This document shows positions 19,110 to 24,336 of a stretch of DNA of 45,356 nt, piece by piece. The stretch lies in contig CAXMRF010000005.1 in the NCBI GenBank assembly GCA_964195965.1, forward strand, positions 1 through 45,356. The letters are read 5' to 3'. Source of the DNA: an uncultured Nitrosomonadaceae bacterium (GTDB taxonomy: Bacteria; Chloroflexota; Anaerolineae; Anaerolineales; UBA11858). A model generated the notes under the pieces. It ran no database searches, had not been told where the DNA came from, and worked only from the letters and a program-made list of their open reading frames with translations. Position 1 is the first letter of the stretch, and each line of letters starts with the position of its first letter. Made by a program: the position numbers and the translations under genes.

Positions 19110-19119
19110 CAGCCCAATA

Positions 19120-19415
19120 CAAAGGCAAGGATGAAAACGAGTAAGGCTGAAAAAATCTGCCAGCGAACCCGGAAATGGTGGAAGCCGGGCCAGAAAAATC
19201 AGTCTGAAAATCCTTTCGGAGCCGTGAACTGAACGCCAAAGGCTATTAAGGGATCCGGGTTCACCCCCGTTATCAGGGTGCAAGGCTGAATCATAAATTG
19301 ACTGGAATAAACCAGTCCTGGAGAGTCCTTGCTTGAGGGCCCGCTAACCGCGGGAATCCGGGTGGTACCGCGTGAGTTTTTACTCTCGTCCCGACACAGG
19401 GACGGGAGTTTTTTT
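19120..19415 (+). ncRNA. T-box riboswitch, Ile (AUC) specifier, transcription-termination type
   Basis: Stem I motifs AGTA, AGCGA, GGTGGAAG, GAA; ATC specifier at 19210-19212; CCGTTA F-box; T-box AATCCGGGTGGTACCGCG 19355-19372; terminator ACTCTCGTCCC-gacaca-GGGACGGGAGT plus T-run. Confidence 0.93.
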
Positions 19416-19429
19416 ATTCAGGAGGCAGG

Positions 19430-22400
19430 ATGGCTATAAAAAAGGCGCCAAACGAAGTTGATTTCATCAAACAAGAGCATCAAACCCTGAAATTCTGGGA
19501 CCAGATTGATGCCTTTCAGACCCAACGGGATCTACATAAAGGCGATCCCACCTGGTCATTTATCGATGGGCCCATTACCGCCAATAACCCCATGGGGGTT
19601 CATCACGGGTGGGGGCGGACCTATAAAGACCTCTTTAATCGTTTCTGGACCATGAAAGGGCGGGAACTCCGCTACCAGAATGGTTTTGACTGCCAGGGTT
19701 TATGGGTGGAAGTAGAAGTTGAAAAGGAAAAAGGTTTTAAATCCAAAAAGGATATTGAAAGTTATGGGCTGGCAAAATTTGTCCGGGAATGCAAAGCCCG
19801 GGTGCTTAAATATGCGGCAGTCCAGACCGAACAATCAATCAGGCTGGGATACTGGATGGATTGGAACAAACCTGATCATTTACGCGATCTGGCTGAAAAG
19901 CTCCTCAACGATCCTCTAGAAGAAATCACCGTTCCCGGTCCCAAGGGGCCTGTCACCGATACCGTTGAGCAAATTGTCGGCCGGCTGGGTTTACAGGAAT
20001 TGGGCGGATCTTATTTCACCTTCTCCAATGAAAACAACTACATGATCTGGAAATTTCTCAAGAAAACCTGGGAGAAGGGATGGCTGTACCGGGGCGCTGA
20101 TGTGATGCCCTGGTGCCCGCGCTGCGCCACTGCCATCAGCCAGCACGAAATTGTAACCGACGGCTATGCGGAATTAACACACCAGTCAGTAACCTTAAGA
20201 TTCCCCTTGCGAGATCAGCCTGGCGAATCGCTGCTGGTCTGGACGACAACACCCTGGACGCTTACTTCCAACGTGGCAGCTGCTGTTGGCCCGGAGTTAG
20301 CTTATCTCAAAGTCCAAATCTCTCTTCCTGCCCCGAATGAAGGCCAGGAACATATTGTTTACCTGTCAAAAGGAACCGCTGGCATGCTGCGCGGAGAATA
20401 CAAAATCCTTGGTGAAGTCAAAGGCAAAGATATGGAAGGCTGGACTTATGATGGTCCATTTGATGACTTTCCAGCTGCTTTAAATCCCGGTGGAGTAACT
20501 GAATTAAAGGAACTTCAAGAAGGCATTCAACAAAACGCTGTGGAAGCCCACCGGGTAATCCTCTGGGAAGAGGTCGGTGAAGAAGAAGGGACCGGCATTG
20601 TCCATATCGCTCCTGGATGCGGCGCCGAGGACTTCCAGCTTTCTTTTGAAAATACCCTCCCCAGGATTGCTCCCCTAACCGAAGAAGGTTATTTCGTTGA
20701 CGAATTTGGATGGCTCACTGGCAAACATGTCTCAGAAGTCGCCGAAGATATTTTCCACAACCTGGAAGAAAAAGGTGTCCTGTATCACGTAGAACCATAT
20801 ACTCACCGCTACCCCACCTGCTGGCGCTGTAAAACCGAGCTGGTTTTCAGGCTGGTAGATGAATGGTTTATCAGCATGGGTGAAAATTATGATAAACCCC
20901 GCGAAGAAATCACCGCCGCTGAGAAAGAAGCCAGCCTGCGGTACCAGATTATGGATGTCGTCGATCAAATCCGCTGGATTCCTGATTTTGGTCATGCCCG
21001 CGAATTGGATTGGCTGCGGAATATGCATGACTGGATGATCTCCAAAAAACGTTATTGGGGGCTCGCTCTGCCTATCTGGGTCTGCGGCGATTGTGATCAT
21101 TACCACGTGGTTGGCGACGACGACGAACTGAAAGAACGCGCTATAGAAGGATACGAGGCCTTTAAAGGACATACCCCTCACCGGCCGTATGTTGATGAGG
21201 TTATCCTGGCTTGCGACAAATGCGGCGGCAGAATGACCCGGATCCCCGATGTTGGTAATCCCTGGCTGGATGCAGGCATTGTGCCATTTTCTACCCTCAG
21301 TTACCGGGTTGATCCTGATTTTTGGGAAAAATGGTATCCCGCGCATTGGATCAGCGAATCCTTCCCCGGGCAATTCCGAAACTGGTTCTACAGTCTCCTG
21401 GCTATGGGCACCGTACTGGATAGTTCCCCGCCCTTCCTTGAGAACTTCAGTTATGCCAGTTTACTAGCTGAAGATGGCCGGGAAATGCACAAATCCTGGG
21501 GCAATTCAATTGAATTCAACGAAGCAGCTGACAAAATGGGCGTGGACGTTATGCGCTGGCTGTATTGCTCCCACAAACCCGAAAACAACTTGCTTTTTGG
21601 TTTCCATAAAGCTGAAGAGACCCGGCGGCACTTTATCATTCCATTCTGGAATGTATATTCTTTCTTTACCACTTATGCAGAGATTGACGGCTGGAATCCC
21701 GAGATCAAGGATTTTGATCCTGACACTCCTGAAGGCCCAACACCAGAGACGCAAAATCCTTTGGATCGCTGGATCCTGGGGCGGCTCAACCAGACTGTCG
21801 ATCAGGTAGCTCAAGAGTTCGAAAACTCCAATGCCTACAATGCCACCCTTGTTTTTGAGTCGATGTTGGATGACTTGAGCAACTGGTATGTTCGCCGCTC
21901 TCGCAGACGGTACTGGAAAACCGAGACCGATCAGGATAAGTCCACAGCTTATGCCACGCTCTGGCATGTCTTAGTCAAGATGATCAGAACATTAGCCCCG
22001 GTCCTTCCGTTTCTTACTGAACAGATTTACCAGAACCTGGTCCGCTCGGTATATCCGGAGGCCCGGGAAAGCATTCACCATACTCTCTGGCCGGAAGCGG
22101 ACTTTAAAGCCATCGATCAAAAACTGATTGATCAGATGAAATTGGCCCGGGAAACCGCCAGCCAGGGCTTAAGTGCCCGGAGCAACGCGGGCATCAAGGT
22201 CAGGCAGCCGCTGTCCCAGGTTATAGTTTATGTCAAAGAAGGCCGGGCAGAATTAGATGACGAGCTGATAGAAATCGTGCAGGATGAACTAAACGTTAAA
22301 AGTCTTGTGTTTGTTCAGGATGCAAAATCTTTATTAGCTTATAAAGTGCTTCCCAATAATAAATTATTGGGGCCAAAGTACGGCGCTGATTTCCCGAAAG

Positions 22401-22870
22401 TTTCTGCTGCACTGGCGAAACTGGACCCCAATCAGGTTGCCGCATTGGTTAATGAAGGAAGCCCAATTGCACTTGTTGTTGGAAAGGATGAAGTCAATCT
22501 GGCACCAGAAGAAGTACTGTTGCAAACGGTGGCCGCGGAAGGATTGGCCACCGTGGACAGCAAACTGCTCACAGTAGCTATTGATACAGAAATCACTCCG
22601 GCCCTGCGGGACGAAGGCCTTGCCAGAGAAATCATCCGGCGCATTCAGGATTTCCGCAAACAGGCAGATTTTGATATCTCCGACAGGATCATCCTGGTCT
22701 ACCAGGCGACCCCATCCCTGCAGGTCGCGATCGAAGCTCACCGGGTTTATATTATGGAAGAGACCCTGACTGTTGAAATGTCCCAGGCGGATCCTGCAGC
22801 AGGCATGTTCAGCGGAACCGCCAGTTTTGAGGGAGAAGAGACCACCCTGGGGTTAAAGGTTGTTGAATAA
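19430..22870 (+). CDS. ileS: Isoleucine--tRNA ligase, type 2 (IleRS2)
   Basis: DGPITAN, WTTTPWTL, GTGIVHIAPG, DWMISKKRYWG, LSNWYVRRSRRR, EGLAREIIRRIQ; Ile T-box upstream. Confidence 0.97.
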   Translation: MAIKKAPNEVDFIKQEHQTLKFWDQIDAFQTQRDLHKGDPTWSFIDGPITANNPMGVHHGWGRTYKDLFNRFWTMKGRELRYQNGFDCQGLWVEVEVEKEKGFKSKKDIESYGLAKFVRECKARVLKYAAVQTEQSIRLGYWMDWNKPDHLRDLAEKLLNDPLEEITVPGPKGPVTDTVEQIVGRLGLQELGGSYFTFSNENNYMIWKFLKKTWEKGWLYRGADVMPWCPRCATAISQHEIVTDGYAELTHQSVTLRFPLRDQPGESLLVWTTTPWTLTSNVAAAVGPELAYLKVQISLPAPNEGQEHIVYLSKGTAGMLRGEYKILGEVKGKDMEGWTYDGPFDDFPAALNPGGVTELKELQEGIQQNAVEAHRVILWEEVGEEEGTGIVHIAPGCGAEDFQLSFENTLPRIAPLTEEGYFVDEFGWLTGKHVSEVAEDIFHNLEEKGVLYHVEPYTHRYPTCWRCKTELVFRLVDEWFISMGENYDKPREEITAAEKEASLRYQIMDVVDQIRWIPDFGHARELDWLRNMHDWMISKKRYWGLALPIWVCGDCDHYHVVGDDDELKERAIEGYEAFKGHTPHRPYVDEVILACDKCGGRMTRIPDVGNPWLDAGIVPFSTLSYRVDPDFWEKWYPAHWISESFPGQFRNWFYSLLAMGTVLDSSPPFLENFSYASLLAEDGREMHKSWGNSIEFNEAADKMGVDVMRWLYCSHKPENNLLFGFHKAEETRRHFIIPFWNVYSFFTTYAEIDGWNPEIKDFDPDTPEGPTPETQNPLDRWILGRLNQTVDQVAQEFENSNAYNATLVFESMLDDLSNWYVRRSRRRYWKTETDQDKSTAYATLWHVLVKMIRTLAPVLPFLTEQIYQNLVRSVYPEARESIHHTLWPEADFKAIDQKLIDQMKLARETASQGLSARSNAGIKVRQPLSQVIVYVKEGRAELDDELIEIVQDELNVKSLVFVQDAKSLLAYKVLPNNKLLGPKYGADFPKVSAALAKLDPNQVAALVNEGSPIALVVGKDEVNLAPEEVLLQTVAAEGLATVDSKLLTVAIDTEITPALRDEGLAREIIRRIQDFRKQADFDISDRIILVYQATPSLQVAIEAHRVYIMEETLTVEMSQADPAAGMFSGTASFEGEETTLGLKVVE

Positions 22871-22878
22871 GACCATCA

Positions 22879-22919
22879 TCTCAGGATGCGGATTCATTAA
22901 AGGAACCTACATCCTGAGA
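22879..22919 (+). terminator. Stem-loop after ileS (terminator or 3' stabiliser)
   Basis: TCTCAGGATG...CATCCTGAGA; no adjacent U tract. Confidence 0.55.
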
Positions 22920-22943
22920 GAGTTCCCGCATCCTTTTAAAATT

Positions 22944-22952
22944 TGATATAAT
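22944..22952 (+). promoter_or_regulatory. Extended -10 promoter of the tyrS leader
   Basis: TGaTATAAT, ending 7 nt before the uORF ATG. Confidence 0.75.
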
Positions 22953-22959
22953 CAATCAT

Positions 22960-23010
22960 ATGACCTTGAAAAATAATCACAATCAGGTCCTGGACTATTA
23001 TAGAACCTAG
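22960..23010 (+). CDS. Putative tyrS leader peptide MTLKNNHNQVLDYYRT (leaderless uORF)
   Basis: 16 codons with tandem TAT-TAT at 22996-23001; ATG at the predicted transcription start; directly followed by attenuator-like hairpins. Confidence 0.7.
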   Translation: MTLKNNHNQVLDYYRT

Positions 23011-23080
23011 AAGCGCTGACCCGATAAAACAGATCAGTGCTTCTCCACACGCCCTCTCAATCGGGGGCGTGTTATTATTT
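23009..23080 (+). promoter_or_regulatory. Putative transcription attenuator of tyrS
   Basis: Hairpin 23009-23019/23034-23044; terminator 23047-23056/23063-23072 plus TATTATTT; alternative pairing 23013-23025 with 23060-23070. Confidence 0.7.
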
Positions 23081-23109
23081 AGAAATCAATCAAGAATTGG
23101 GAGAACCCG

Positions 23110-24336
23110 ATGGGTAAAAGAAAGCTGACCATAGATGAAGAAGTAGCTTACTTAATGCAAGGAGCCGATTACGGAGACGAGCAGGTAAAACAGGCCATGG
23201 CAGGGGAATTAAAAGAGCGCCTGATTGAAGCCAAGAAAGAGAATCGCCCCCTTAAAGTCTACTGCGGCTATGATCCTACGGCGCCCGATTTACACCTGGG
23301 CCACACGGTGACGATGCGAAAATTGAGTCAATTCCAGGAACTGGGACATGAAGTGACTTTTTTGATCGGTGACTTTACCTCGTTGATTGGAGATCCATCC
23401 GATAAAGACAAATTACGGCCTCAATTAACCCCCGAACAGGTAGCTAAAAACGGCGATACCTATGCAGAACAATCTTTTAAGGTACTGGATCCTGAAAAAA
23501 CCATAATTCGCCATAACGCGGACTGGTTATCCAAGCTGAATTTTGAAGACCTGATCCGGCTGTGCGCAAACTTTACCGTGGGGCAATTTCTCAGCAGAGA
23601 TAATTTCTCAAAAAGATATCACAATCATGACGCAATTTATATCCATGAGTTCTTTTACGCCATCATGCAAGGATATGACGCCTATATGCTTGATGCGGAT
23701 GTCCAGATTGGCGGCAGCGACCAGCTTTTTAATATAGTCACCGCTTCCCGGAAACTGATGGGCGCCCTGGGGAAGAAGCCCAATATCGGCATTACCATGT
23801 CTATCCTGCCCGGCACCGATGGCGAAATCCGGATGGGCAAATCCCTTGGCAATCACATCCCGATCACCGGTGATTCCAAGGATATGTACGGCAAACTAAT
23901 GAGTATTCCCGACAAAGCCATGGGCATCTTCAGCCGACTGGTGACCCGCTGGACTCCAGATGACATTGAAAAATTTGAAGGGGACCTCGCCAATGGAACA
24001 CTTCATCCCAAAGAGGCCAAGATGGCATTGGCCCGGGAAATTGTATCCATCTATCATGGTTCAGATAAAGCAGAAATCGCGGAAGCTGAATTTGTGCGCG
24101 TGTTCCAGAAAAAAGGCCAACCGGATGAAATGGCTGAATATCCGTTACAGAAAGGGCAAAAAATCCTGGATGTTTTGGAAGATGCCGGGTTGGTCGGAAG
24201 CCGCAGCGAAGCCCGGCGTATGCTTCAGCAGGGTGCTGTCCGTCTGGATGACCAGAAACTGGACGATCCCCATGCTGAGTTTCCCGGCACAGGTGTTCTT
24301 CAGGTTGGCAAGCGCCGTTTTATCAAGATCGTATGA
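23110..24336 (+). CDS. tyrS: Tyrosine--tRNA ligase
   Basis: YCGYDPTAPDLHLGH, IGDPS, QGYD, GGSDQLFN, RMGKSLGN, C-terminal S4 domain. Confidence 0.97.
   Translation: MGKRKLTIDEEVAYLMQGADYGDEQVKQAMAGELKERLIEAKKENRPLKVYCGYDPTAPDLHLGHTVTMRKLSQFQELGHEVTFLIGDFTSLIGDPSDKDKLRPQLTPEQVAKNGDTYAEQSFKVLDPEKTIIRHNADWLSKLNFEDLIRLCANFTVGQFLSRDNFSKRYHNHDAIYIHEFFYAIMQGYDAYMLDADVQIGGSDQLFNIVTASRKLMGALGKKPNIGITMSILPGTDGEIRMGKSLGNHIPITGDSKDMYGKLMSIPDKAMGIFSRLVTRWTPDDIEKFEGDLANGTLHPKEAKMALAREIVSIYHGSDKAEIAEAEFVRVFQKKGQPDEMAEYPLQKGQKILDVLEDAGLVGSRSEARRMLQQGAVRLDDQKLDDPHAEFPGTGVLQVGKRRFIKIV

What the first reader, a model, noticed from the sequence alone, without database searches (positions are those of the whole stretch)
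22944..23110. Leaderless Tyr-Tyr uORF and attenuator controlling tyrS
Seen: an extended -10 (TGaTATAAT) ends 7 nt before an ATG, which puts the ATG at the expected +1. It opens MTLKNNHNQVLDYYRT*, whose only Tyr codons are a tandem pair ending two sense codons before the stop. Downstream are an 11-bp hairpin (23009-19/23034-44), a 10-bp terminator (23047-56/23063-72, weak U tract) and a mutually exclusive antiterminator GCGCU-GA-CCCGAU (23013-25) : AUCGGG-GGCGU (23060-70). Inference: a ribosome stalled at YY covers to about 23014, breaks hairpin 1 and frees CCCGAU to invade the terminator (read-through), while a ribosome at the stop covers CCCGAU and allows termination. Known precedents are E. 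coli pheM-pheST attenuation and leaderless regulatory uORFs in mycobacteria; tyrS is typically T-box controlled in Firmicutes. I do not recall a described Tyr leader-peptide attenuator for tyrS.
Basis: partly seen in the sequence, partly recalled or inferred. Interest (0 to 1): 0.88.

Follow-up and report, generated by a model that had tools for sequence, protein, structure and literature searches.

The report
Tyrosine-sensing leader peptide before tyrS
A tiny upstream gene with two adjacent tyrosine codons, followed by a transcription stop signal, sits before the tyrosyl-tRNA synthetase gene and recurs across a whole bacterial order, so it most likely raises enzyme production when charged tyrosine tRNA runs short.

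Summary
The window is from an Anaerolineales (Chloroflexota) MAG.

Supported by comparison:
- Of 104 distinct tyrS upstream regions, 70 have a terminator-like hairpin. 57 of those 70 have tandem Tyr codons in the last 9 codons of an ORF ending just before it. The next most frequent tandem is Leu, at 13.
- 38 of the 57 have a TATAAT-like hexamer 4-10 nt before the in-frame start codon (6-8 nt in 36), which indicates leaderless transcripts.
- The peptides share little apart from YY.

So a Tyr-codon leader-peptide attenuator of tyrS is well supported. I found no description of one in six literature searches.

- The CCCGAU:AUCGGG helix is chance level.
- It does not covary in the genus.
- A ribosome stalled at YY would leave hairpin 1 essentially intact.

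Other families do have a clear, covarying antiterminator, in which the segment just after the stop codon pairs with the terminator apex. In the window's genus a stable hairpin running from the stop codon to the terminator takes its place. How that hairpin switches termination is unresolved.

The parts
22883..22937 (+). ileS terminator: hairpin 22883-22934 followed by a U run. It ends the upstream transcription unit, so the tyrS leader has its own promoter.
   Evidence: MFE -21.6 kcal/mol, z = -4.0. A comparable hairpin plus T run follows ileS in relatives.
22944..22952 (+). Extended -10 promoter element TGaTATAAT (hexamer 22947-22952). It lies 7 nt before the ATG, so the transcript should begin at or next to the A of the ATG (leaderless).
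   Evidence: Columns are invariant or nearly invariant in the genus alignment. In 38 of 57 YY loci a TATAAT-like hexamer lies 4-10 nt before the in-frame start: perfect TATAAT in 37, spacing 6-8 nt in 36. The TSS was not mapped.
22960..23010 (+). Leader ORF of 16 codons plus TAG: MTLKNNHNQVLDYYRT*.
   Evidence: Homologous short ORFs of 8-26 codons occur in 38 loci, with variable sequence apart from YY.
22996..23001 (+). Tandem Tyr codons TAT TAT, the proposed sensor.
   Evidence: tandem YY in 57 of 70 loci with a terminator, against 13 for the next most frequent tandem (LL); both synonymous codons are used (TAT 121, TAC 33).
23009..23044 (+). Hairpin H1: 11 bp with a 14-nt loop. It starts at the A of the TAG stop codon and ends 2 nt before T.
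   Evidence: (-15.4 kcal/mol). Relatives L024, L047 and L070 have hairpins of different sequence in the same position.
23047..23081 (+). Intrinsic terminator T: stem 23047-56/23063-72, loop 23057-62, then an interrupted U tract TATTATTTA.
   Evidence: -18.0 kcal/mol; 98.3% of cells paired in the genus.
23070..23078 (+). TGtTATTAT, a second extended -10-like motif overlapping the 3' arm and tail of T. It is a possible basal tyrS promoter (P2), with an expected start near 23085.
   Evidence: present at the same place in 16 of 17 loci of the genus group and 1 of 40 others. Promoter function is an inference.
23099..23103 (+). Shine-Dalgarno GGGAG of tyrS, 6 nt before the ATG.
   Evidence: GGGAG is conserved in the alignment.
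23110..24336 (+). tyrS, the regulated gene (TyrRS, 408 aa).

Best explanation
Region 22944-23110 is the leader of tyrS. It is the local form of a tyrosine-codon leader-peptide transcription attenuator that is conserved before tyrS in the order Anaerolineales.

Proposed sequence of events:
1. An extended -10 promoter starts the RNA at or next to the AUG, so the transcript is leaderless.
2. A ribosome translates a 16-codon ORF whose only conserved feature is YY, two codons before the stop.
3. When Tyr-tRNATyr is plentiful, the ribosome runs to the UAG. There it covers the whole 5' arm of hairpin H1, and RNA polymerase terminates at T, 37 nt before tyrS.
4. When Tyr-tRNATyr is scarce, the ribosome waits at YY with its front edge at the foot of an intact H1. 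More polymerases then read through into tyrS.

What is shown by comparison: the ORF, YY, the promoter spacing, H1 and T, and their linkage to tyrS.

What is shown in other families: a real antiterminator. The segment just 3' of the stop codon pairs with the terminator apex. It is free when the ribosome sits at YY and about half covered when the ribosome sits at the stop.

What is inferred, at roughly one in three odds: in the window's genus, folded H1 plays the antiterminator's part even though it shares no nucleotides with T. It ends 0-4 nt from T, so the two helices may not both be able to close at their bases inside the polymerase. On that reading, termination needs a ribosome at the stop codon to hold H1 open.

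A second -10-like motif inside T may give basal tyrS transcription.
For: Anatomy and fold.

Organism: the closest tyrS loci are Anaerolineales MAGs.

Conservation of YY:
- 104 distinct tyrS upstream regions were examined, the window included.
- 70 have a terminator-like hairpin within 170 nt of tyrS.
- 57 of those 70 have YY in the last 9 residues of an ORF ending at most 60 nt before it.
- Other tandems: LL 13, II 11, SS 7, all others 6 or fewer.

Leaderless form: in 38 of 57 a TATAAT-like hexamer lies 4-10 nt (6-8 nt in 36) before the in-frame ATG or GTG. The ORFs are 8-26 codons, with TAT 121 and TAC 33.

Long-ORF form: in 18 of 57 the YY sits in the C-terminal tail of a full-length upstream gene.

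Distribution in further genomes: 5 of 10 in the same order, 0 of 3 in the same class, 0 of 25 in the same phylum.

Antiterminator outside the genus:
- Own-locus duplex -15.6 kcal/mol, cross-locus -12.3, and 0 of 1000 permutations as low.
- Contiguous helices of 5-13 bp with 27 distinct target sequences. Examples are CUGCGG:CCGCAG, CUGUGG:CCACAG, GCUGUG:CACAGC and CUCGCGG:CCGCGAG.
- A ribosome at the last Tyr codon masks 0% of that strand in 33 of 33 loci.
- A ribosome at the stop codon masks 50% on average.

H1 and T in the genus: 96.7% of cells paired, and a covariation score of 0.095 against 0.068 in shuffles (3 of 500 as high).

H1 geometry: the first pair lies 7-15 nt (median 11) from the last Tyr codon, and the gap to T is 0-4 nt (median 2).

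No T-box: none before tyrS here. None on the tyrS strand in 40 other Chloroflexota loci.
Against: - There are no expression data. No RNA run holds the stretch, so the TSS, the 3' end at T and any response to tyrosine are untested.
- In the window and its genus no alternative pairing that would exclude T rises above chance. T forms in every constrained fold. The switch step therefore rests on elimination and on analogy with other families.
- The adjacency idea has a weakness. In antiterminator-type loci a small hairpin also abuts T (for example L080; seen), and there termination is expected.
- Exceptions exist inside the genus: L009 has HH instead of YY, L017 and L019 have a single Tyr, and L016 and L021 have no leader.
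- 13 of the 70 loci with a terminator lack YY, and 34 of 104 have no terminator-like hairpin by my crude scan.
- The loci are related, so the counts overstate independent support.
- The U tract of T is interrupted and overlaps a promoter-like motif. tyrS could therefore be transcribed mainly from there.
Confidence: 0.75

Rival explanations
1. A ribosome stalled at YY breaks H1 and frees CCCGAU and GCGCU (23013-25) to pair with AUCGGG-GGCGU (23060-70). That pairing is a classical antiterminator that competes with T.
For: The complementarity is in the sequence. Its topology matches the real antiterminators of other families: a strand just after the stop codon pairing with the terminator loop and 3' arm. 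The GCGCU:GGCGU part is invariant in the genus (helix 1, 96.3% paired).
Against: - A 6-bp helix is chance level: 59% of 200 shuffles reach it.
- No own-versus-cross signal in the genus: 1229 of 2000 permutations are as low and 905 of 1000.
- The loop part is unpaired in 4 of 11, 11 of 16 and 12 of 16 sequences.
- Its duplex energy is -11.4 kcal/mol, against H1 at -15.4 and T at -18.0, both of which it must displace.
- A stalled ribosome covers at most 3-4 of the 11 H1 pairs (plus the recalled footprint size).
- T is in the MFE of every masked state.
Confidence: 0.07
2. The ORF and the two hairpins form an independent small transcription unit, a micro-peptide or small RNA with its own terminator. 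tyrS is transcribed from the -10-like motif inside T. On this reading YY is conserved for the peptide's sake and tyrS is not attenuated.
For: TGtTATTAT overlaps T at a fixed distance from tyrS in 16 of 17 loci of the genus group. T forms in all modelled states. No antiterminator is detectable here.
Against: - Apart from YY the peptides are unrelated and only 8-26 residues long.
- The element is always directly before tyrS, whatever lies upstream.
- In 18 loci the YY is the tail of an ordinary upstream gene.
- 40 loci outside the genus show a significant antiterminator, and 39 of those 40 have no promoter-like motif after T.
Confidence: 0.08
3. In the hairpin-type loci the output is translational, or the sign is inverted. 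On this reading, when a ribosome at the stop codon opens H1, the freed 3' arm does one of two things. It pairs with the tyrS Shine-Dalgarno region, or it pairs with the 3' arm of T (GUGCUUCU:GGGGGCGU).
For: Both pairings are possible in at least 85% of genus sequences at every column. The H1 3' arm plus spacer versus the SD region gives -8.8 kcal/mol on average. Leaderless Cys uORFs in mycobacteria act translationally (preprint 10.1101/834739, passages read).
Against: - Own versus cross is not significant: 292 of 2000 for the SD pairing.
- The pyrimidine-rich arm is complementary to any SD.
- The H1-3':T3 helix has 5 G-U pairs out of 8 and only about -4.7 kcal/mol, against -18 for T.
- An inverted sign would lower TyrRS when Tyr-tRNA is short, the opposite of the logic in the antiterminator-type relatives.
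Confidence: 0.08

Closest known systems
E. coli pheM-pheST leader-peptide attenuator (recalled from general knowledge, not checked in a call)
   Same: An aminoacyl-tRNA synthetase gene is controlled by a short upstream ORF rich in codons for its own amino acid, followed by an intrinsic terminator. Ribosome stalling favours read-through.
   Different: - Tyr instead of Phe, with only 2-5 sensor codons.
- Leaderless rather than SD-led.
- Chloroflexota rather than Gammaproteobacteria.
- In the window's genus there is no recognisable 2:3 antiterminator.
- In other families the antiterminator pairs with the terminator apex rather than only with its 5' arm.
Classical amino-acid operon leaders (trp, his, leu, thr, ilv; Rfam leader families)
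   Same: Principle and parts: leader ORF, cognate codons, terminator. In the relatives of other families there is also a ribosome-position-dependent antiterminator.
   Different: No Rfam family matches: best E-value 0.3 in 22500-23500. The regulated gene is a synthetase. Many loci lack a 1:2 anti-antiterminator, so the ribosome at the stop codon itself appears to be what blocks the antiterminator.
Leaderless poly-Cys short ORFs of mycobacteria (preprint 10.1101/834739; passages read)
   Same: A leaderless short ORF with consecutive codons for one amino acid, acting in cis on the downstream gene through ribosome occupancy.
   Different: According to the passages read, that system acts on translation: the Cys tract pairs with the SD region and transcription continues. 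Here a terminator with a U tract follows the ORF, and no ORF:SD pairing was found.
T-box leader of tyrS in Firmicutes (Henkin et al. 1992; seen only as a reference-list entry, otherwise recalled)
   Same: Same gene, same physiological signal (a shortage of charged tRNATyr) and same output (read-through of a leader terminator).
   Different: A T-box binds the tRNA directly and needs no translation. The tyrS leader here has no T-box. The ileS leader 3.7 kb upstream in the same window does: RF00230, 91.6 bits, E = 7e-21.
E. coli rph-pyrE attenuator (recalled)
   Same: For the 18 long-ORF loci: the end of a full-length upstream gene serves as the 'leader', and its translation decides termination before the next gene.
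   Different: There the signal is UTP-dependent coupling of polymerase and ribosome. Here it would be hungry Tyr codons placed 3-5 codons before the stop.

Membership tests
Ribosome-mediated (leader-peptide) transcription attenuator | A short translated ORF lies between the promoter and the regulated gene. | tested here: met
   A 16-codon ORF at 22960-23010, with TATAAT 7 nt before the ATG. The same arrangement occurs in 38 of 57 loci. Translation itself was not shown.
Ribosome-mediated (leader-peptide) transcription attenuator | [quoted passage not shown] | tested here: met
   Tandem Tyr in 57 of 70 loci with a terminator. The next most frequent tandem (Leu) is in 13.
Ribosome-mediated (leader-peptide) transcription attenuator | An intrinsic terminator lies between the ORF and the gene. 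| tested here: met
   The U tract is interrupted (TATTATTTA). Termination was not measured.
Ribosome-mediated (leader-peptide) transcription attenuator | An antiterminator that excludes the terminator and depends on ribosome position. | tested here: inconclusive
   Not found above chance in the window or its genus. Clearly present in the loci of other families.
Ribosome-mediated (leader-peptide) transcription attenuator | Read-through rises when the cognate charged tRNA is limiting. | not testable with these tools
   No RNA run holds the stretch and the organism is uncultured.
T-box leader (RF00230) | Match to the T-box covariance model (Stem I with specifier loop, and the T-box sequence in the antiterminator). 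| tested here: not met
   No T-box match in 22500-23500 at E up to 10. The model does detect the ileS leader at 19119-19396.
Leaderless regulatory uORF | The transcription start coincides with the start codon. | not testable with these tools
   Only the promoter spacing speaks for it: 7 nt here, and 6-8 nt in 36 of 38 loci.

The most novel reading that the evidence does not exclude
The hairpin-type loci, the window among them, use a switching principle not described for attenuators. The antiterminator (H1) shares no nucleotide with the terminator. It blocks the terminator only by abutting it, 0-4 nt away, so that both stems cannot close at their bases in the polymerase exit channel. The ribosome decides the outcome by unwinding H1 when it reaches the stop codon. 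In this scheme termination is translation-dependent, and an untranslated leader reads through. This is the opposite of the super-attenuation seen in classical leaders.
Probability: 0.25. Interest if true: 0.8.

Novelty: new variant of a known kind. Interest (0 to 1): 0.62.

Why it matters
Synthetase genes are known to be controlled in three ways: by T-boxes, by autoregulation and, for pheST, by a leader peptide. I found no tyrosine-specific leader peptide, and none for tyrS, in the literature searches I ran.

Four points make this element useful:
- It is order-wide, so it can serve as a marker for annotating Anaerolineales genomes.
- It shows that Chloroflexota use a T-box (ileS) and a leader peptide (tyrS) side by side in one genome.
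- It extends leaderless regulatory ORFs beyond Actinobacteria, and to transcription termination.
- It offers three natural variants of one device: the short leaderless ORF, the sensor codons grafted onto the tail of a real protein gene, and the hairpin-for-antiterminator swap. These make the mechanism experimentally tractable.

If the hairpin type works as inferred, it would add a new way for a ribosome to control a terminator.

Tried and rejected
- **Hungry-codon frameshift into H1 and T.** The +1 frame is open through T in the window. However, it is closed before T in 5 of 17 loci of the genus group, and the +2 frame is closed in 5 of 17. Rejected.
- **H1 loop pairing with the T loop and 3' arm.** Not significant: 605 of 2000 permutations as low.
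- **T 5' arm end plus loop pairing with the SD region.** Not significant: 965 of 2000.
- **T loop alone pairing with the SD region.** Not significant: 253 of 2000.
- **5' part of the ORF pairing with T.** Not significant: 490 of 2000.
- **Unbiased scan of the genus alignment for conserved helices.** It found only T, H1, the G-U-rich H1-3':T3 helix, and pyrimidine-run pairings with GGGGG or GGGAG.
- **TATTAT as a -10 box rather than Tyr codons.** Rejected. TAC is used 33 times out of 154 Tyr codons. In the 38 leaderless loci the pair is also in frame with a start codon placed at leaderless distance from a -10 hexamer. A stop follows 1-5 codons later.
- **Other leaderless leader peptides in this genome.** A scan for a TAnAAT hexamer, 5-8 nt, ATG or GTG, an ORF of 5-45 codons, then a terminator gave 11 hits. 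Only the tyrS leader is convincing. The MFFCW hit on C13 lies inside a membrane-protein gene.
- **Expression.** No RNA holder is listed for 22600-23600. Read laying was not used, because only assembled contigs were on offer and they cannot show RNA ends.
- **Upstream long ORF (L022, 193 aa).** It gives only a sub-threshold bacterial PH-domain hit.
- **TyrRS tree.** The tree (FastTree, midpoint root, no support values examined) places the hairpin type in at least two clades among antiterminator-type loci. I treat it as rough.
- **Caveat on classes.** The H1 and AT classes were defined after seeing the energies: local fold at most -11 kcal/mol and duplex above -13 kcal/mol. Per-class counts are therefore partly circular. 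The split by TyrRS identity (at least 71%, or below) used is not.
- **Rows dropped.**
  - L101, because its upstream stretch was too short.
  - 5 duplicate upstream regions.
  - L086, because of runs of N.
  - L121 and L142, because no start codon was found.
- **Supplementary files** of papers were not opened.
Full report
**What is there.** The 239-nt spacer between ileS (19430-22870) and tyrS (23110-24336) holds these elements, in order.
- The ileS terminator: hairpin 22883-22934 plus a U run.
- TGATATAAT at 22944-52, then seven bases, then ATG at 22960.
- The ORF MTLKNNHNQVLDYYRT with a TAG stop at 23008-10.
- An 11-bp hairpin H1 (23009-19/23034-44).
- A 10-bp G+C-rich hairpin T (23047-56/23063-72), followed by TATTATTTA.
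- GGGAG, then the tyrS ATG.

H1 and T are both in the minimum-free-energy fold: -49.4 kcal/mol, z = -5.1, and 0 of 200 shuffles as stable. The terminator scan finds T. No Rfam family matches the leader.

**Whose genome.** The closest tyrS loci in the species collection are MAGs labelled Anaerolineales, Anaerolineae or Chloroflexota. The window's assembly is a 2.2-Mb MAG that is 92% complete.

**Conservation.** I collected tyrS loci from 40 relatives and 80 named records. After removing duplicates and one short record, 105 distinct upstream regions remained. 104 were scanned; one was set aside for runs of N.
- 70 have a terminator-like hairpin within 170 nt of tyrS.
- In 57 of those 70, an ORF ending at most 60 nt before the hairpin has tandem Tyr in its last nine residues.
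- The same count for every other amino acid gives Leu 13, Ile 11, Ser 7, and 6 or fewer for the rest.
- The Leu and Ile counts may partly be TATTATTAT read in the other frames. I did not check this.
- The 57 include the window itself, and the loci are kin, so these are not 57 independent events.

The peptides differ almost completely apart from YY. Examples are MFSEKPQNLTGYYYPL, MKNYRKYYYER, MMTCVYYYYYSQP and MKWNNYYQ. Both Tyr codons are used, TAT 121 times and TAC 33 times. That fits a coding constraint and not a -10-like DNA motif.

In 38 of the 57, a TATAAT-like hexamer lies 4-10 nt before the in-frame ATG or GTG. It is a perfect TATAAT in 37, and the spacing is 6-8 nt in 36. The ORFs are 8-26 codons long. 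The leaderless reading therefore rests on a conserved geometry, though no TSS has been mapped.

In 18 of the 57 there is no short ORF. Instead a full-length upstream gene ends ...YY(Y)xRx*, directly before the same kind of terminator. In L022 that gene encodes a 193-residue membrane protein with only a sub-threshold bacterial PH-domain hit.

**Distribution.** In a further sample, 5 of 10 same-order genomes have the element. 0 of 3 same-class and 0 of 25 other Chloroflexota tyrS upstream regions do. None of 40 loci without the element carries a T-box on the tyrS strand at E up to 0.001.

**The switch in other families.** I split the 57 by TyrRS identity to the window, a criterion independent of RNA features.
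- In the 40 loci below 71% identity, the segment between the stop codon and T is complementary to the terminator apex of its own locus.
- That pairing is far stronger than with the apex of other loci: -15.6 against -12.3 kcal/mol. Own is lower than cross in 31 of 40, and 0 of 1000 permutations are as low.
- The longest contiguous helices are 5-13 bp and change together from locus to locus. Examples are CUGCGG:CCGCAG, CUGUGG:CCACAG, GCUGUG:CACAGC, CUCGGC:GCCGAG, CUCGCGG:CCGCGAG and CAUCUGC:GCAGAUG. There are 27 distinct targets in 33 loci.
- I assume a ribosome hides about 13 nt from the first base of its A-site codon (recalled general knowledge). A ribosome with the last Tyr codon in the A site then hides none of this strand in 33 of 33 loci.
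- A ribosome at the stop codon hides half of it on average, and at least half in 19 of 33.

This is a classical logic with a clean sign: stall means read-through. Many of these loci lack a convincing anti-antiterminator. The ribosome parked at the stop codon therefore seems to be what prevents antitermination.

**The switch in the window's genus.** In the 17 loci at 71% identity or above, the same test is negative.
- Own duplex -8.0 kcal/mol, cross -8.4, shuffled -10.0, with 905 of 1000 permutations as low.
- On the MAFFT alignment, 76.5% of its cells pair against 78.1% in shuffles. The three loop pairs are unpaired in 4 of 11, 11 of 16 and 12 of 16 sequences.
- In the window itself the 6-bp CCCGAU:AUCGGG helix is matched or beaten in 59% of 200 dinucleotide shuffles.
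- Constrained folds that mask the RNA up to 23011 (ribosome at YY) or up to 23023 (ribosome at the stop) keep T in the optimum. Forbidding T leaves nothing better than a few weak pairs.

By contrast, H1 and T are kept in 96.7% of cells, with a little covariation (score 0.095 against 0.068; 3 of 500 shuffles as high). Hairpins of unrelated sequence occupy the same place in L024, L047 and L070.

Across the 24 loci with such a hairpin, its first pair lies 7-15 nt (median 11) from the first base of the last Tyr codon. Its last pair lies 0-4 nt (median 2) before T. These classes were defined after seeing the energies, so those figures are descriptive.

**What this implies.**
- A ribosome waiting at YY reaches only the foot of H1. 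In the window that is at most 3-4 of 11 pairs.
- A ribosome at UAG covers the whole 5' arm.
- The only state-specific difference in the RNA is therefore H1 folded (starved, or no ribosome) against H1 open (ribosome at the stop).
- No other free RNA segment shows a signal: not the H1 loop, the 5' end of the ORF, or the SD region.

The antiterminator-type relatives fix the sign, so I infer that folded H1 stands in for the antiterminator. How it would hinder a terminator with which it shares no nucleotide is not visible in the sequence. Mutual exclusion of the two stem bases, separated by 0-4 nt, inside the polymerase is my best guess, at about one in three. A point against it is that small hairpins also abut T in some antiterminator-type loci.

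**Rejected alternatives.** The other alternatives I tested and rejected are listed under Tried and rejected.

**An extra feature of the genus.** The 3' arm and tail of T read TGtTATTAT, an extended -10-like motif. It lies 29-33 nt before the tyrS ATG in 16 of 17 genus loci, against 1 of 40 elsewhere. This may explain why the tail is nearly invariant and why the U tract is interrupted. It suggests a basal promoter for this essential gene, and it keeps alive the rival that tyrS is mostly transcribed from there.

**Comparison with what is known.**
- The device works like the pheM-pheST and amino-acid operon leaders (recalled).
- It resembles the leaderless poly-Cys ORFs of mycobacteria in its start. 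Those act on translation, according to the passages I read (10.1101/834739).
- It is not a T-box, although the same window has one before ileS at 19119-19396 (91.6 bits against a gathering score of 93, E = 7e-21).
- Searches for tyrS with leader peptide or attenuator terms returned nothing that describes a Tyr leader peptide for tyrS (listings). The same holds for searches combining Chloroflexi with those terms.
- The 2005 Actinobacteria survey mentions tyrS only in its reference list (passages).
- The 2016 leader-gene survey treats Chloroflexi as too sparsely sampled (passages).
- Subscription journals and supplements were not searched, so 'not described' holds only for these searches.

**Verdict.** This is a real, conserved and apparently undescribed regulatory element of a known general kind. 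The hairpin-type switch is the open and most interesting question.

Noticed in passing
window 19119-19396 (+): A T-box leader lies directly before ileS (RF00230, 91.6 bits, just under the gathering score of 93, E = 7e-21), followed by a terminator with a T run. So ileS and tyrS, adjacent genes, use two different tRNA-charging sensors.
   Followed up: partly
window 23070-23078 (+): TGtTATTAT, an extended -10-like motif, is embedded in the 3' arm and tail of the terminator. It is present in 16 of 17 loci of the genus group and 1 of 40 others. It may be a basal tyrS promoter.
   Followed up: partly
L022:840-1421 and 17 other loci (for example L025, L036-L038, L040-L042): In 18 loci the tandem Tyr codons are the C-terminal tail (YY(Y)xRx*) of a full-length upstream membrane-protein gene, which has only a sub-threshold bPH_6 hit. 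In L119 and L120 a similar upstream ORF end runs straight into tyrS with no terminator and a single Tyr (my reading of the output; not aligned).
   Followed up: partly
L009 (tyrS upstream; rows): A same-genus relative keeps H1 and T, but the ORF ends FFHHSKL*, with CAT CAT where its sister L003 has TAT TAT. It also has no start codon at leaderless distance. This may be a decayed or retuned leader.
   Followed up: no
L003 (tyrS upstream; rows): A two-ORF arrangement. A short first ORF (MVKHYTRK*) overlaps, through ATGA, the start of the YY-containing ORF. This suggests translational coupling instead of a leaderless start.
   Followed up: no
window 22963-22969 with 22983-22988, and the same place in relatives: A small hairpin may form inside the leader ORF, between bases 4-10 and the bases just before YY. 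It changes on both sides in L018 (UUCUGA/UCAGAA) and L005 (UUCAGU/ACUGGA). It could be a pause or synchronising hairpin. I read this by eye only.
   Followed up: no
stop codons of the 57 leader ORFs (rows): Read by eye from the rows, hairpin-type loci end in TAG in 23 of 24 cases (L022 uses TGA). Antiterminator-type loci use TAG in 4 of 33. This may simply reflect pairing of the stop codon in the foot of H1, or it may reflect a need for slow termination.
   Followed up: no
L059:99-362 (-): A T-box (98.4 bits) lies on the strand opposite to tyrS in Thermanaerothrix daxensis. It belongs to a divergent neighbouring gene, not to tyrS.
   Followed up: no
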